Assembly (NCBI GenBank): GCA_021613535.1 | Contig: CP075497.1 | Location: 2,356,001 to 2,420,000, forward strand | Length of the DNA: 64,000 bases | Direction of reading: 5' to 3' | DNA from: Adineta vaga | Lineage: Eukaryota > Animalia > Rotifera | Part shown: one piece after another, positions 42,992 through 49,546 of the stretch | Layout: each line of letters starts with the position of its first letter | How positions within the stretch are numbered: position 1 is the stretch's first letter | Notes under the pieces: generated by a model | What the model was told of the DNA's origin: nothing | Seen by the model: only the letters and a program-made list of their open reading frames with translations | Database searches by the model: none | Position numbers and translations under genes: made by a program

Positions 42992-43869
42992 TTACATAGG
43001 AAAGAAAGAAAAAACATACAATGAGAGAAAAATTCGTAAAGAACAACACGTAATTTTATTACTATCATTTGATATTGTGCTATTATCTCCATTCGCTGGT
43101 GTACTTAATTCATTAGATGATCGTTCAACAATAGCAATATCTGCACAATTATAAAATTCTTCTTGTTGATCAGCGCAACCTAAACATTTTCGTCCTTTTT
43201 GATCTTTTCCCCATGTATTTCCTGCATGATATTTCCATTGCAGTACACAATGTTTACATGAAACGATTTCTAGAGGTAATTGAACAGGAACATAAAAATA
43301 TGATTTATTTCCATGTGGTAAATAATATCGTGTATCATCTCCATTCGATTTTGAATCACTTGGACCAATATTTAATATATGTTGATCTAAACATCGTTGA
43401 GTTAAACGACGTGGTCGGCGTGATTCTCCTATATCAACTGGACATAATCGAAATTCGAAATAACCGAAATGATTTGCAGTTATATCAATTGTTGTATTTA
43501 GCATTTCACCTGATTCATATGTACGACCAATGATACCTGTTGAATAAATTCCGCCATCTTCATGATCACGTGGACCTTGAAATGGATCTCCACAAATACC
43601 ACAACGACCATTTTGAGCACCCCATTGATTTTCTTTTCCACCACAATAATTACTCATATCATTATAATTCGTTGGTACATCAAATCCAAAACGCCACATT
43701 GAACCTAATGAAAACATACTCAGATCAATTATTTGAACATTTCTTTCTTACCTCTTTGTGGTGGTTCGAGTAATCTTCCATGTGAATGACTTGATTTTAT
43801 CAATGAAATAAAAATTAACCAATTGAAAAGTATTGATTGGCTACAAGCCAGTGTACATTTCATGATCAT
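42992..43869 (-). CDS. Lytic polysaccharide monooxygenase, family AA15 (chitin-binding type-4 domain), probably GPI/membrane anchored; 2 exons
   Basis: Signal peptide then mature N-terminal His: HGRLLEPPQR|GSMWRFGF...YCGG...CGICGDP; second His in ITANHFGYFEFRLC; LQWKY.AGNTWG; EEFYNCADI; hydrophobic C-terminus. Confidence 0.9.
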
Positions 43870-44711
43870 GGCATTCAACTATTCATTCAGTATGTTCAAT
43901 ACATTCAATCTCGTTATAATTGTCTGGTCATACAAAACGAAAGAAAATGAAAGATCGAAGTTAAGCTTTATATAAACAATTCATTAAGACACATACAAGT
44001 GTTACCCATCGATACGAAGAAACAAAAGATGATGAGCAGAGAAAAAAAGAGAAGAAAAGAAACAATTGTACACGAAACCTTTCATTTTATCATTTAACTC
44101 GGAGGTTACAATGATAAAAACACATTCTTACTAAACAACTATTATAAGTCAATCAGTATGACAAGAATTACAAACAAAAAATATCATATGATGAGATCAA
44201 GATCAATACAATTCATGTTTTCAGATCTTTTGAAATTGTTTGTTAGTAATAAAAGACTTGATTTATATACTAATACACAGATTTACATATTGTTTAAATA
44301 AATATGTGTTGATACTCTTTCTTATATGACAATATATCAGATAGATCTCTATGCAATGAATATTTAGTGTTCAAGACCTTTTTTTCTCGCTCGAGATGAA
44401 TTTAATCCAAATAGATATAACAACTAGCGATTATACTTCGTTAGAATGATTTCATTCCATGAATGAAGGAACAAATTTTAAAAATGTCTTACAAAATACT
44501 ATGGAAAGTGATTATCCAATAGAATCGAATGATACTAGAGACCTCACTGTTTGGATTTGTTGCTTACTCTACCAATATGAAAAATGTAATCAATGGATGG
44601 AAAAAAACTCGTTCGTTTCGTTCCTTGTAAATTCTATTTTACAGCTAACTGACTGGACGTTAAATATTATTTTTCTATTTTAGATATCTTTCCTATTAAT
44701 CTTCTAAAATC

Positions 44712-46218
44712 ATGCAGTTAACTTCCCGATTTTTCAAAAATCGTCTCCCTGAAACAGATGATTTAGTTATGGTCAATGTCGTTAATATCGAAGAAATGGG
44801 TGTGTACGTTCATCTCCTTGAATATAATAATATCGAAGGTAAAATTCATGTAGTTTTGTATCATAAATTGATTTTTATTCATTTGCCCAGGTATGATTCT
44901 CTTAACTGAGTTATCTCGACGTCGTATCCGTTCAATCAATAAACTTATTCGTGTTGGTCGAAATGAAGTTGTCGTTGTTGTTCGTGTCGATCGTGATAAA
45001 GGTAAAGTTTTATTTCTATCCAAATGTTATCCTATTGTGCTTTTGTTTAGGCTATATCGATTTATCTAAACGCCGTGTTTCACCTGAAGATATTAGCAAA
45101 TGTGAAGAAAAATTTGTTCGTGGAAAAACTGTATGATTTCATCGCTTTTACAATTCAATATATATATATATTAGTTGGATGTTTTTAGGTCAGCAGTATT
45201 CTTCGTCATACGGCTGAAGTCTTAGGATTGAAAACAAATGAAGAATTTGAAGAATTATACGATAAAACAGCATGGTATTATGATGAAAAATACAAACGAG
45301 CAGGTGCTGCTTATGATGTTTTTGCTCGAGCTGTCAAGTAAGAAATTAACAATAGATTTATGCTTGAGAAGAAATGTTTCCTCCTAGTGATGAACATGAA
45401 CTTGACGATTGTAAAGTTGATGATGCTACAAAGAAGATTCTCTTGAATAACATTCGTCGACGTTTAACTCCTCAAGCTGTCAAATGTCGAGCAGGTTGAG
45501 ACAAATCCGAATGTTTTGATATCATGCTTTCGTTTGATTGATATTTAGATGTGGAAGTTGCATGTTATGGTTATGAAGGTGTCGATGCAGTGAAAGCAGC
45601 ACTCAGAGAAGGTCTCAATGCATCTACAGAAGAAATGCCTGTGAAAGTAAGATTTGTTTTTTCGATTTCAAAAAACTGAAAGATATGCTGATTTGAATGT
45701 GGATTTAGATTAATTTAATTGCTCCACCTCTTTATGTTGTCACCGCAACATGTCTAGATCGAAATGAAGGACTTGATGCATTGAAAAATGTAATCGAAAA
45801 GATCAAACAAGGAATTGAAAAGTATCGAGGTATATTCAAAATAAAAATGGAACCAAAAGTCGTTACTGATGTTGATGATATAACATTGAAAGTAAAATTC
45901 GCAATAGAAATATTTCTTTCTCTTGTATACAGAAAGTTTTTCACAGGAAGCAATGCAACAAGCTGAAGATGAAAATCGTGAACGATCTGGTGATGACGAT
46001 GAAGATTCAGATGAAGACGAAGGTATGTGAGATTCTAATAATTGGACAAAGCAATCGTTTTTCATCTTTTAGAAGGAGGAATCAAAGGAAAATTACCAGG
46101 TGAAGATGAAGATGAAGCAACTGGAGCATCGACAGAATCAAAACGCACACCACAAAATAATGCTAAGGGTGATAATGAAGAGGATGACGATGACGACGAA
46201 GCCGAAAATGAAGATTAA
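44712..46218 (+). CDS. EIF2S1: Eukaryotic translation initiation factor 2 alpha
   Basis: [83 protein letters not shown]; acidic tail. Confidence 0.97.
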
Positions 46219-47290: not shown

Positions 47291-48932
47291 TTAGTTTTTC
47301 TTTTTAGATTTTTTTGAAAAACGAATATTTCTTTCCGACATGCCTTTGACATTGATCAGTGGTTTAAGTCGATGAACGATTTTCACTAATGATTCTTGAT
47401 TCATCATGACTGTTGTTAAATCCTAAGAGAGAGCAAAAAAAAAGAAGTACAAATCATCAACAGAACACATTCTTATTTACTTTATATGCTTGTGGTGCTT
47501 CATCTCTCAATCCTGAATTTGTATCACTAACAATACCCTTCATTGCTTGTTCAAATGATTGCTGAGAAATTTGTTTCATTGCCTTGAGAAGTAAAAGTAA
47601 AGCATCAAATGAAACAGATTATTATTATTTCCTTTAAATAAAACGAACCATAGTTCGAGACATTAATCTACCAGCACCATGTGAACATGAATAAAAAGAT
47701 AGAGGATTTCCTAATCCTTCGACAATAAATGATCCTGTACCCATCGAACCAGGAATAATCCCAAATTGTCCTTTGCGTGCACTTGTCGCACCTTTCCTTG
47801 TTACCCAAACTAGTTCTTCTTCTGATTTTTCAAAACAAATCTTTTCCTGCTGACAATAATTATGATGAATATTAACCATTCGTTTCAAATCAGCTTCATG
47901 ATTAGTGACTGATTTAATAATTAAACAAAGTTCATCTAACATAATTCGACGATTTTGTTCAGCATAATTCAAACACCACCGCATATCAATTAAATAATCT
48001 CGACCTTCAGACGAATCAATTTCAAGATATTTCAACTCATTAATAATTGGAAGACGACGTTGAGACATTTGTTGACCAGCAATACTATGATAATAATCAC
48101 ATGTTTCTTTACCAATTCGTCGTGAACCACTAAAACAAACTTTCTCGTATCTACATTAAATTTTTCACAAAAATTCTTCATACCTATGTAACATAATCCA
48201 AATTTGTTCATTTTCATCGTATAGTATTTCAAGAAAATGATTTCCTGAACCTAATGTTCCTAACTAAATCGAAAAACATCAAACAACTACTACAAACATT
48301 CATCTTCCTACTTGTTTTTTCGTAATATCACATATTTGATTCTTTAAATAATTTGTACATGTTCCTAAATTTCGAATAATTTCATTTGCTTTTGCATGTG
48401 CTTTTACTCTTGCATCATGTCCTGTTGGTATTGCATTTTTAATCTTCTGTTGAATTTCTCTTTTCCATGTTTCTTTTAGTTTAGTTGTTGTTAAACCAAC
48501 GATAGGTACAGCAATCATTCCACAACCAATATCAGCACCAACAGCATATGGACTGACATGAGTTAAAGACGCAAAAACAGTTCCAATCGTTGCACCTACA
48601 CCTAATAAATGGATTCCAAGGCATAGAAATGAATTGACGATATCATAAATCTTACCTACATGAACATCAGCCATAGCAGCAACGAAACCTTTCACAATTC
48701 CACTTTCAGCTAAAACAACTAATTGTTGCAATGCTTTTGATTCAAGTTGACGTGTATAAAGATGAATTGGTACACCTGATGTCGGAATAATAAGAGGTAG
48801 TAGTGTTGATGAATCAGCGATGGAACATTGTGCACTTTTCCCCTCGACATCTACTTCATGAACTAAAGTTGAGAAATAACGAGATCGAATCAAACGAGAG
48901 CATGATCGTTTGATCAAAGTATTCAATATCAT
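47291..48932 (-). CDS. rtcB: Bacterial-type RtcB RNA ligase (3'-phosphate/5'-OH) with N-terminal extension; 6 exons
   Basis: MADVHVGVGATIG, AVGADIGCGM, QLGTLGSGNHFLE, MLHSGSRRIG, NIHHNY, VTRKGATSA, IIPGSMG, SCSHGAGRLMSR, DEAPQAYKD, LKPLINVKG. Introns 48602-48655, 48264-48311, 48130-48183, 47583-47648 and 47423-47480. Confidence 0.95.
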
Positions 48933-49063
48933 ATTCTAGCGTGTAATTCTATAAGTAAAAGTTTATTAAGAATTTTAGTGCAGAATCAAAACAACATACA
49001 TTGAATTTATTATTAATTTACATAGGAAAAAAATGATTCGAGATTAAAACACTGTTCAGTTTC

Positions 49064-49546
49064 TTATTTATCATTTGAATTTTGTTCATTTATAGCATCA
49101 ATTTTTTCTTCTTCAACTTCTCCAGCATCATCACGTGCTCTTGCTGTTGGAGCATCTTCACCATCTTGATTCGATATCAGATCTTCATTTGACGCTGTTG
49201 CTTTTTCAATAACTTGTTCATCGGTTTTCTCTACTTGTTTACATTCTTCAACTTGCATATCCAATTGTTCAATAAATGATTTATAGAATGAACATTCCCA
49301 ATTTTCTTTTCGTAAAACAAAAGTACATTTAATATTAAGTCCATTGACAACTTGAGTTTTACAAACGTGATCCGATACTAAAGTTTGAACATCATCACCA
49401 ACTTTTACACCATGTATTTTTGTAAGAGCCTTCTGTAGACATTCTTGTTTAAGTGATTCATCAGTAGATGTAGTCCATCCACCAAGTAATTGTTCAGCAA
49501 AACAAGAATTCACCGAGAGAATAAGAACAAGAATAATCGGTTTCAT
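49064..49546 (-). CDS. Secreted cystatin-like protein with acidic C-terminal tail
   Basis: Signal peptide, LLGGW, cystatin motif QVVNG (QxVxG); Glu/Asp-rich tail. Confidence 0.75.
   Translation of the reverse strand: MKPIILVLILSVNSCFAEQLLGGWTTSTDESLKQECLQKALTKIHGVKVGDDVQTLVSDHVCKTQVVNGLNIKCTFVLRKENWECSFYKSFIEQLDMQVEECKQVEKTDEQVIEKATASNEDLISNQDGEDAPTARARDDAGEVEEEKIDAINEQNSNDK

What the first reader, a model, noticed from the sequence alone, without database searches (positions are those of the whole stretch)
47291..48932. Horizontally acquired bacterial-type RtcB with five introns and a mitochondrial-presequence-like N-terminus
Seen: all RtcB catalytic motifs are intact (D-x-G-C, GNHF, HSGS, HHN, H of SHGAG) across six exons. 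The motif context (MADVHVGVGATIGTV, TRKGATSA, DEAPQAYK) and compact length resemble E. coli-type RtcB rather than animal HSPC117/RTCB. The first ~25 residues (MILNTLIKRSCSRLIRSRYFSTLVH) are Arg/Ser/Leu-rich, have no acidic residue and carry an R-x-F-S cleavage-like site. Known: bacterial RtcB reseals RNA with 2',3'-cyclic-phosphate/5'-OH ends without archease, and bdelloids carry many foreign genes; I recall bacterial-type RtcB being noted in them. Inference: a domesticated foreign ligase retargeted to mitochondria could form an organellar RNA-repair system for mt-rRNA/tRNA damaged by desiccation, radiation or ribotoxins. I do not know of that being described in an animal.
Basis: partly seen in the sequence, partly recalled or inferred. 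Interest (0 to 1): 0.85.

Follow-up and report, generated by a model that had tools for sequence, protein, structure and literature searches.

The report
Alga-type mitochondrial RNA ligase in rotifers
This rotifer gene encodes an intact, spliced RNA-joining enzyme (RtcB) whose closest relatives are mostly algal and protist proteins rather than the animal version; it was likely borrowed from such a microbe and is predicted to enter mitochondria, where it would mend broken RNAs, a role our literature searches did not find described in any animal.

Summary
The gene is real. Six exons (minus strand, 48932-47291) give a 453-aa RtcB identical to the Adineta vaga record UJR35239.1. All five introns are spliced in transcript-like contigs and lie at the same positions in three other bdelloid-like loci. 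The catalytic residues are intact, and the core is under purifying selection.

It is not the metazoan RTCB (22% identity), but not a simple bacterial import either. Trees nest it in a mostly algal/protist clade (green algae, diatoms, dinoflagellates, chlorarachniophyte, ciliate), and an AU test rejects grouping it with the nearest bacterial subclade (p=0.005). Most clade members carry N-terminal extensions, many presequence-like, and basic tails; the bacterial members lack extensions. So the likely history is transfer of an already organelle-targeted ligase from a eukaryote, not retargeting in rotifers.

The N-terminus is presequence-like in 6 of 8 bdelloid proteins, and no other Met precedes the core. 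No targeting predictor or localisation test was available. Mitochondrial bacterial-type RtcB is known in Euglenozoa; I found no report for an animal. A stress or repair role is untested.

Side finding: a leader intron removes the upstream gene's poly(A) signal. No earlier scan note matched.

The parts
48656..48932 (-). Exon 1 (Met1 to H91/V92): presequence-like region, acidic linker, start of the RtcB core
48873..48932 (-). Predicted mitochondrial presequence, residues 1-20, ending in R-Y-F|S (R-2/R-3-type cleavage motif, motif recalled)
   Evidence: low-confidence helical region in the model; conserved in orthologues. Targeting itself is inferred
48602..48655 (-). Intron 1 (54 nt, phase 1, in frame and without a stop)
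   Evidence: joint in X1-X4; same position in L089, L091, L092
48312..48601 (-). Exon 2, with D116 and C119 (metal ligands)
48264..48311 (-). Intron 2 (48 nt)
48184..48263 (-). Exon 3, with N197/H198 and H215
48130..48183 (-). Intron 3 (54 nt)
47649..48129 (-). Exon 4, with H305, TRKGA, PGSMG and the guanylylated His equivalent H366
47583..47648 (-). Intron 4 (66 nt)
47481..47582 (-). Exon 5, with E404 and Y409
47423..47480 (-). Intron 5 (58 nt); retained in the NCBI isoform model UJR35240.1 (417 aa)
   Evidence: spliced in X1, X2, X5; retained model
47291..47422 (-). Exon 6: last strand (K436), 16-aa basic tail (47294-47341) and stop
48949..48999 (-). 5'-leader intron (51 nt, GT-AG) that removes the upstream gene's likely poly(A) signal
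   Evidence: joint in X2, X3, X4
48962..48967 (-). AATAAA 35 nt before the RtcB ATG; 33-34 nt before it in L089, L091, L092
   Evidence: an X5 contig of the upstream gene ends at 48947
49064..49546 (-). Upstream gene, 160 aa, with a signal-peptide-like start and acidic tail; cystatin-like by recalled motifs only; same neighbour in L089, L091 and in A. steineri models
   Evidence: no cystatin hit in Pfam or PDB

Best explanation
This is an intact, spliced RtcB RNA ligase gene shared by Adineta and Rotaria rotifers; it was likely acquired from an alga or protist whose RtcB was probably already organelle-targeted, is predicted to be imported into mitochondria, and would there rejoin broken RNAs. 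Shown: gene structure, splicing, intact active site, RtcB fold, purifying selection, placement in a mostly eukaryotic clade apart from E. coli RtcB and from the archaeal/metazoan type, and a conserved basic, acid-free N-terminus. Inferred from known families: the matrix peptidase cuts at R-Y-F|S. Mn2+ held by D116/C119/H198/H215/H305 lets H366 take GMP from GTP; the GMP passes to an RNA 3'-phosphate (after opening a 2',3'-cyclic phosphate), and a 5'-OH attacks to seal the break, probably without archease as for E. coli RtcB (recalled). Inferred and weakest: the substrates are mitochondrial tRNAs/rRNAs nicked by oxidation, drying or nucleases.
For: Gene and splicing. Same five intron positions and phases in 3 of 3 complete metagenome loci. 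Core pN/pS 0.13-0.20 in 6 of 6 pairs; residues 1-24 give 0.36-0.60 in the 5 pairs that have synonymous changes, with no frameshift. Fold: core pLDDT above 90, residues 1-30 at 47-57; all matches under E 1e-22 are RtcB structures. Metal and GMP residues map to PhRtcB D95, C98, H203, H234, H329, H404 (alignment; roles from PMC10630183 passages). Tree: bdelloids 100/100; with P0010 99/91; with the chlorarachniophyte cluster P0095 95/88; all inside a 100/97 clade that excludes E. coli (taxon). AU p=0.005 against bdelloids plus the bacterial subclade. Of 111 non-bdelloid rows, 20 name an organism: 15 algae/protists, 5 bacteria, no animal. N-termini: 87 of 122 other clade rows have a Met start and a 10-120 aa extension, and 33 of those 87 pass a crude presequence rule. 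0 of 22 bacterial-subclade rows pass; 6 of 8 bdelloid proteins pass; internal-window nulls pass at 3.8% and 4.8%. Precedent: mitochondrial bacterial-type RtcB in Trypanosoma (shown) and Diplonema (predicted) (PMC12699882).
Against: No TargetP, MitoFates, DeepLoc or proteomic result. The presequence rule was written by me after seeing this N-terminus, so the window's own pass is by construction. R. socialis and R. magnacalcarata fail it (an Asp at position 17, only 2 Arg; RYFS lost). Only 33 of 87 extended relatives pass the strict rule (61 a looser one), and some look plastid-type. A basic C-terminal tail could act as a nuclear/nucleolar signal. The sister P0010 is an unnamed Logan protein whose eukaryotic origin is assumed. 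Branches are long (1.04 to the bdelloids), the deep nodes are unresolved, a bacterial subclade sits inside the clade, and the AU group was defined after the tree was seen. PMC12699882 says relatives of Diplonema RTCB3 are predicted nuclear/cytoplasmic, and I could not tell whether this clade is theirs. No expression data under stress were obtained.
Confidence: 0.55

Rival explanations
1. One reading: a bacterial RtcB was taken up directly by a bdelloid ancestor and gained a presequence in the rotifer.
For: Several of the best-scoring non-bdelloid hits belong to the bacterial subclade (53-55% identity). The presequence shows no evident sequence likeness to algal ones (by eye). An unsampled bacterial donor is possible.
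Against: AU test rejects grouping with the sampled nearest bacteria (p=0.005). The supported sisters have N-terminal extensions. The basic tail is shared with 54 of 85 scored clade rows.
Confidence: 0.14
2. The enzyme works in the cytosol or nucleus (repair of cytosolic tRNA/rRNA, or a back-up for tRNA splicing). The N-terminus is a vestige and the basic tail is the working signal, or the protein goes to both places.
For: Lys/Arg-rich tail in 8 of 8 bdelloid proteins printed. Weakened presequence in 2 of 8. Fungal ribotoxins proposed to act on rotifer ribosomes (PMC11258130) would hit cytosolic rRNA.
Against: The extension keeps its acid-free basic make-up across Adineta and most Rotaria at pN/pS below 1. 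There is no alternative Met before the core. Basic tails also occur on relatives with clear presequence-like starts.
Confidence: 0.15
3. It is mitochondrial but does routine maturation (joining RNA pieces), as proposed for Diplonema RTCB1, rather than damage repair.
For: Precedent in PMC12699882. Strong purifying selection in all bdelloid loci compared.
Against: Bdelloid mitochondrial genes are not known to me to be fragmented (recalled, not tested). Other animals mature mitochondrial RNA without such an enzyme (PMC13247085 passage on human tRNA ligase subunits).
Confidence: 0.09
4. No transfer: an ancient eukaryotic organellar RtcB was kept in bdelloids and lost in other animals.
For: The clade spans green algae, stramenopiles, alveolates and Rhizaria, so it may be old in eukaryotes.
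Against: No other animal, fungus or other opisthokont is named among the best 120 hits of three searches (most rows are unnamed). It would need many losses, and bdelloids are known for frequent transfer.
Confidence: 0.07

Closest known systems
E. coli RtcB (RtcB1, b3421), RNA repair ligase
   Same: Compact architecture without the archaeal/metazoan insertions; 38% identity over 412 columns, E 4e-86; same motifs.
   Different: Separate clade (100/97); has a 41-aa N-terminal extension, a basic tail and spliceosomal introns; no rtcA/rtcR neighbour seen among the window ORFs scanned.
Mitochondrial RtcB of Trypanosoma and Diplonema RTCB1 (PMC12699882)
   Same: Bacterial-type RtcB acquired by a eukaryote and sent to mitochondria: the same working idea.
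   Different: Those fall in the clade holding E. coli RtcB1, with only Naegleria and kinetoplastids as other eukaryotes; this one is in another clade and in an animal. Their sequences were not in my trees.
Metazoan RTCB/HSPC117 tRNA ligase and P. horikoshii RtcB
   Same: Fold (TM 0.67-0.77) and catalytic residues.
   Different: 21-24% identity; lacks their insertions; far from archaeal-type proteins used as outgroup. Human tRNA-ligase subunits have not been found in mitochondria (PMC13247085).
Uncharacterised algal/protist RtcB clade (Trebouxia, Coccomyxa, diatoms, dinoflagellates, Chromera, Partenskyella, Halteria) with a nested Leptospira/Dehalococcoidia subclade
   Same: 48-55% identity; N-terminal extensions and basic tails in most presumed-eukaryote rows.
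   Different: No biochemical or localisation study found; bdelloids are the only named animals in it.
Horizontally acquired RNA ligases already reported in Adineta (PMC11258130, PMC10809525)
   Same: Foreign RNA-repair enzymes in the same animals, proposed to counter radiation or ribotoxins.
   Different: Families PF13563/PF09414/PF09511, or genes FUN_027119 and FUN_021735; neither text names RtcB.

Membership tests
RtcB family (PF01139) | Profile match over the curated cut-off | tested here: met
   3 of 5 exon-level ORFs exceed 27 bits (169, 48, 28); the other two match weakly
RtcB family (PF01139) | Metal ligands D95/C98/H203/H234/H329 and nucleophile H404 (P. horikoshii numbering) | tested here: met
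   D116, C119, H198, H215, H305, H366 (roles)
RtcB family (PF01139) | RtcB fold | tested here: met
   model pLDDT 91.9; Foldseek hits to RtcB structures E 2e-32 to 2e-23
RtcB family (PF01139) | GTP/Mn2+-dependent 3'-P/5'-OH ligation | not testable with these tools
   needs an in vitro assay
Metazoan RTCB/HSPC117 | Orthology: high identity and grouping with the archaeal/metazoan type | tested here: not met
   21-23% identity, 80 bits; separated from six archaeal-type bacterial proxies by a 100-support branch. No metazoan RTCB sequence was in the tree
E. coli RtcB1 clade | Groups with E. coli RtcB | tested here: not met
   separate 100/97 clade
RtcB2/PrfH-linked family (TIGR03073, NF007153) | Score over the curated cut-off | tested here: not met
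   125.5 vs 271.8 and 168 vs 407 bits
Mitochondrial matrix proteins with a cleavable presequence | Basic, acid-free, amphipathic N-terminus | tested here: met
   no D/E in residues 1-25, net +5; residues 7-17 have the highest 11-residue hydrophobic moment in the protein, 0.89; 6 of 8 orthologues pass a crude rule
Mitochondrial matrix proteins with a cleavable presequence | Conserved R-2/R-3 cleavage motif | tested here: inconclusive
   RYFS/RHFS in the three Adineta species and in L089, L091, L092; shifted or absent in Rotaria records; motif definition recalled
Mitochondrial matrix proteins with a cleavable presequence | Prediction by a trained tool, import or proteomic detection | not testable with these tools
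   no such tool on hand
Domesticated horizontally acquired gene | Integrated in the host genome, spliced, conserved across species | tested here: met
   host-like GC and intron size; neighbours include T-box (weak), 7tm_1 and WD40 genes; synteny on both sides in L089
Domesticated horizontally acquired gene | Absent from related animals | tested here: inconclusive
   no other animal named, but most rows are unnamed and only the best 120 are shown

The most novel reading that the evidence does not exclude
A widespread, so far undescribed clade of organelle-targeted RtcB ligases exists across algae and protists. One member passed, targeting signal included, into the bdelloid ancestor, giving these animals a dedicated mitochondrial RNA-repair ligase not described in any other animal. 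It is expressed by read-through from a host gene whose poly(A) signal is spliced away.
Probability: 0.35. Interest if true: 0.82.

Novelty: new variant of a known kind. Interest (0 to 1): 0.62.

Why it matters
Animal mitochondria are not known to have an RtcB-type ligase (PMC13247085 notes that human tRNA-ligase subunits have not been found there). If this protein is imported, bdelloids add mitochondrial RNA repair to their borrowed stress toolkit, and whether resealing mitochondrial RNA helps survive drying or radiation becomes directly testable, also by expressing the gene in other cells. It would be a case of eukaryote-to-animal transfer of a ready-targeted organellar enzyme. It also points to a large unstudied clade of organellar RtcBs in algae, diatoms and dinoflagellates, lineages with fragmented organellar RNAs.

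Tried and rejected
No whole genome is held for this window, so copy number, the canonical RTCB, archease and RtcA could not be searched in this organism; whether bdelloids keep HSPC117 is untested.

No run is on record as RNA ('no RNA holder listed'). Only contigs could be laid, so no start site, strand or expression level was obtained. X6 and X7 gave no match. No loose ends suggesting a spliced leader were seen in the RNA-like runs; contigs cannot show absence.

The genome-contig scan with the rotifer protein found nothing. The Atlas gave only generic bacterial RtcB clusters for the A. steineri homologue. The 50%-cluster search ranked two protist proteins first and added no named lineage.

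Supplements: the expression tables of PMC10809525 were too large to read. For PMC11258130, 13 of 16 files were searched, some cut, without a hit for RtcB/PF01139. The one cut file of PMC12220480 had no hit for FUN_028004; that the FUN and I4U23 numbers correspond is my assumption. PMC12699882's tree sits on FigShare and was not seen; its three supplements name no rotifer. Unseen supplements may list this gene and its stress response. Burroughs and Aravind 2016 was not held; PMC10161547 has no 'RtcB' in its main text.

Rejected: contamination (introns, synteny, orthologues). Pseudogene (pN/pS, splicing). Upstream in-frame extension (a TAG lies two codons before Met1). Downstream AUG start (Met87 lies inside the fold). 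Fusion with the upstream protein as in two A. steineri models (stop codons separate the ORFs in the window and in L089, L091, L092). No complex prediction was run.

Full report
Observation. The minus strand from 48932 to 47291 holds six exons that join to a 453-aa protein, with five short GT-AG introns. The protein is identical to P0121 = UJR35239.1 of Adineta vaga. Contigs of runs X1 and X2 skip all five introns and X5 skips two; X10 skips none. X3 and X4 skip the three that lay in the narrower stretch; X6 and X7 gave nothing. The tool only guesses that these runs are RNA, and contigs give no level, strand or start. Orthologues of 79-86% identity (full-length models) occur in A. ricciae, A. 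steineri and several Rotaria. Three complete bdelloid-like metagenome loci (L089, L091, L092; 3 of the 18 loci, the others partial or more distant) have introns at the same five positions and phases. Core pN/pS is 0.13-0.20 in all six pairs. The gene is an old, maintained part of the bdelloid genome.

Enzyme. Pfam places the exons in RtcB. Alignment with P. horikoshii RtcB maps D116, C119, H198, H215, H305 and H366 to D95, C98, H203, H234, H329 and H404, the two-metal ligands and the guanylylated histidine (PMC10630183, passages). The AlphaFold model has mean pLDDT 91.9, with residues 1-30 at 47-57 and the last block at 52, and it matches only RtcB structures at E below 1e-22. Activity itself is inferred.

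Which RtcB. Identity is 38% to E. coli RtcB and 21-23% to human and zebrafish RTCB. The RtcB2/PrfH models are missed by a wide margin. A FastTree of 183 rows rooted on six archaeal-type bacterial proteins (redundant bdelloid models and proteins lacking the three motifs were left out) puts the bdelloids in a 155-row clade (support 100) apart from E. coli's. An IQ-TREE LG+C20 tree of 45 rows chosen from it gives that clade 100/97, bdelloids 100/100, bdelloids + P0010 99/91, and these + P0095 95/88. P0095 clusters with a Partenskyella (chlorarachniophyte) protein. P0010 is an unnamed Logan protein with a short presequence-like start; its best named hits are green algae and bdelloids. A 10-row subclade with Leptospira and Dehalococcoidia (100/99) sits inside the clade. 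Forcing the bdelloids together with it costs 17 log-likelihood units, AU p=0.005 (the group was defined after the first tree was seen). Of the 111 non-bdelloid rows, 20 name an organism: 15 algae or protists, 5 bacteria, no animal (the labels Botryococcus and Chlorokybus are my reading of JGI codes). A eukaryotic donor is therefore more likely than a bacterial one, but the branches are long and the deep nodes are open.

N-terminus. It extends 41 residues beyond E. coli's start. Residues 1-25 have no acidic residue and net charge +5, and residues 7-17 give the highest 11-residue hydrophobic moment in the protein. The only Met before the core is Met1; Met87 lies inside the fold, and a TAG two codons upstream excludes a longer N-terminus. 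I wrote a crude rule after seeing this sequence (first 22 residues: no D/E, at least 2 R, net at least +3). It is passed by 6 of 8 bdelloid proteins (R. socialis and R. magnacalcarata fail). Of 122 other clade rows, presumed eukaryotic from the tree and mostly unnamed, 87 have a Met start and a 10-120 aa extension; 33 of these pass the rule and 61 a looser one. None of 22 bacterial-subclade proteins passes (2 of 24 were dropped as incomplete), and 21 of the 22 have no extension. Internal windows pass at 14 of 370 and 117 of 2416. Residues 1-24 evolve at pN/pS 0.36-0.60 in five pairs (the sixth has no synonymous change), looser than the core yet below 1, as targeting peptides usually do; the counts are small. 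A basic C-terminal tail is shared with 54 of 85 scored relatives and leaves room for nuclear or dual targeting.

Mechanism, most likely. The protein is made with a presequence, imported into the matrix and cut near R18-Y19-F20|S21 (inferred; motif recalled). It then seals 2',3'-cyclic-phosphate or 3'-phosphate ends to 5'-OH ends through enzyme-GMP and RNA-ppG intermediates (family knowledge; PMC4931112 passages). The substrates would be nicked mitochondrial tRNA or rRNA (inferred, no direct evidence).

Expression layout. Only about 130 nt separate the RtcB ATG from the stop of the upstream gene. In the window and in L089, L091 and L092, an AATAAA lies 33-35 nt before the ATG, with a conserved TATGTAA upstream and a CTAG just before the ATG. 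An X5 contig of the upstream gene ends at 48947, while contigs of X2, X3 and X4 (one study) run from the upstream gene into RtcB and splice out 48949-48999, which holds the AATAAA. Two A. steineri gene models fuse the two genes. This fits read-through with the poly(A) signal spliced away, or a promoter inside the upstream gene; contigs cannot separate these.

Literature. Bacterial-type RtcB in mitochondria is known: shown for Trypanosoma and predicted for Diplonema RTCB1, both in the E. coli clade (PMC12699882: passages and section 36 read, supplements searched; PMC13247085: passages). That paper also says RTCB3 relatives are predicted nuclear/cytoplasmic; I could not see its tree to tell whether that is this clade. 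Bdelloid studies report other foreign RNA ligases and do not mention RtcB in the main text (PMC11258130, PMC10809525: passages; supplements only partly readable). Searches RtcB + bdelloid (1 paper), RtcB + rotifer (5 papers), and searches listed no paper on this gene, on a mitochondrial RtcB in an animal, or on this algal clade; these were seen as listings only, and most subscription papers are outside the library. PMC3577742 and PMC3400036 were seen as passages. Earlier scan notes gave one unrelated hit and two blanks.

Verdict. It works like E. coli RtcB and like the mitochondrial RtcBs of Euglenozoa, but is a member of neither clade nor of metazoan RTCB. It is a new variant of a known kind: probably a eukaryote-derived, mitochondrion-bound RNA ligase in an animal (confidence 0.55 for the whole chain, higher for the gene and enzyme, lower for the repair role). 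Interest 0.62.

Noticed in passing
window 48933-49063 (minus); L089 2140-2297, L091 906-1047, L092 138-280: Conserved tight coupling to the upstream gene: AATAAA 33-35 nt before the RtcB ATG, removed by a 51-nt leader intron in X2-X4 contigs. Possible read-through or operon-like expression of a foreign gene.
   Followed up: partly
window 49064-49546 (minus): Secreted-looking 160-aa protein with cystatin-like motifs (recalled) and an acidic tail that is much longer in L089; no Pfam or PDB cystatin hit.
   Followed up: partly
window 47423-47480: NCBI lists an intron-5-retaining isoform (417 aa) lacking the last strand and K436, probably inactive; models diverging at the same point exist in A. 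ricciae and Rotaria. Not seen in the contigs shown.
   Followed up: partly
proteins P0041, P0044, P0080, P0182 (dinoflagellates): Dinoflagellates have two RtcBs of this clade with N-terminal extensions. They are candidates for the mitochondrial cox3 trans-splicing described in PMC3577742; my speculation, untested.
   Followed up: no
proteins P0017, P0019, P0022, P0054, P0067; L093, L097: A bacterial subclade (Leptospira, Dehalococcoidia and unnamed) nests within the mostly eukaryotic clade, and many members carry an extra C-terminal region of about 100 aa; possible eukaryote-to-bacterium transfer or a rooting artefact.
   Followed up: no
window about 44700-46218 (plus): S1-domain gene, eIF2-alpha-like by recall, convergent with RtcB; same arrangement in L089.
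   Followed up: partly
window 42995-43747 (minus): Lytic polysaccharide mono-oxygenase domain (LPMO_10, E 4e-16); possibly another foreign gene.
   Followed up: no
window 47814: A 3-nt deletion in the Glu run (exon 4) in X1 and X2 contigs, a likely allele or strain difference.
   Followed up: no
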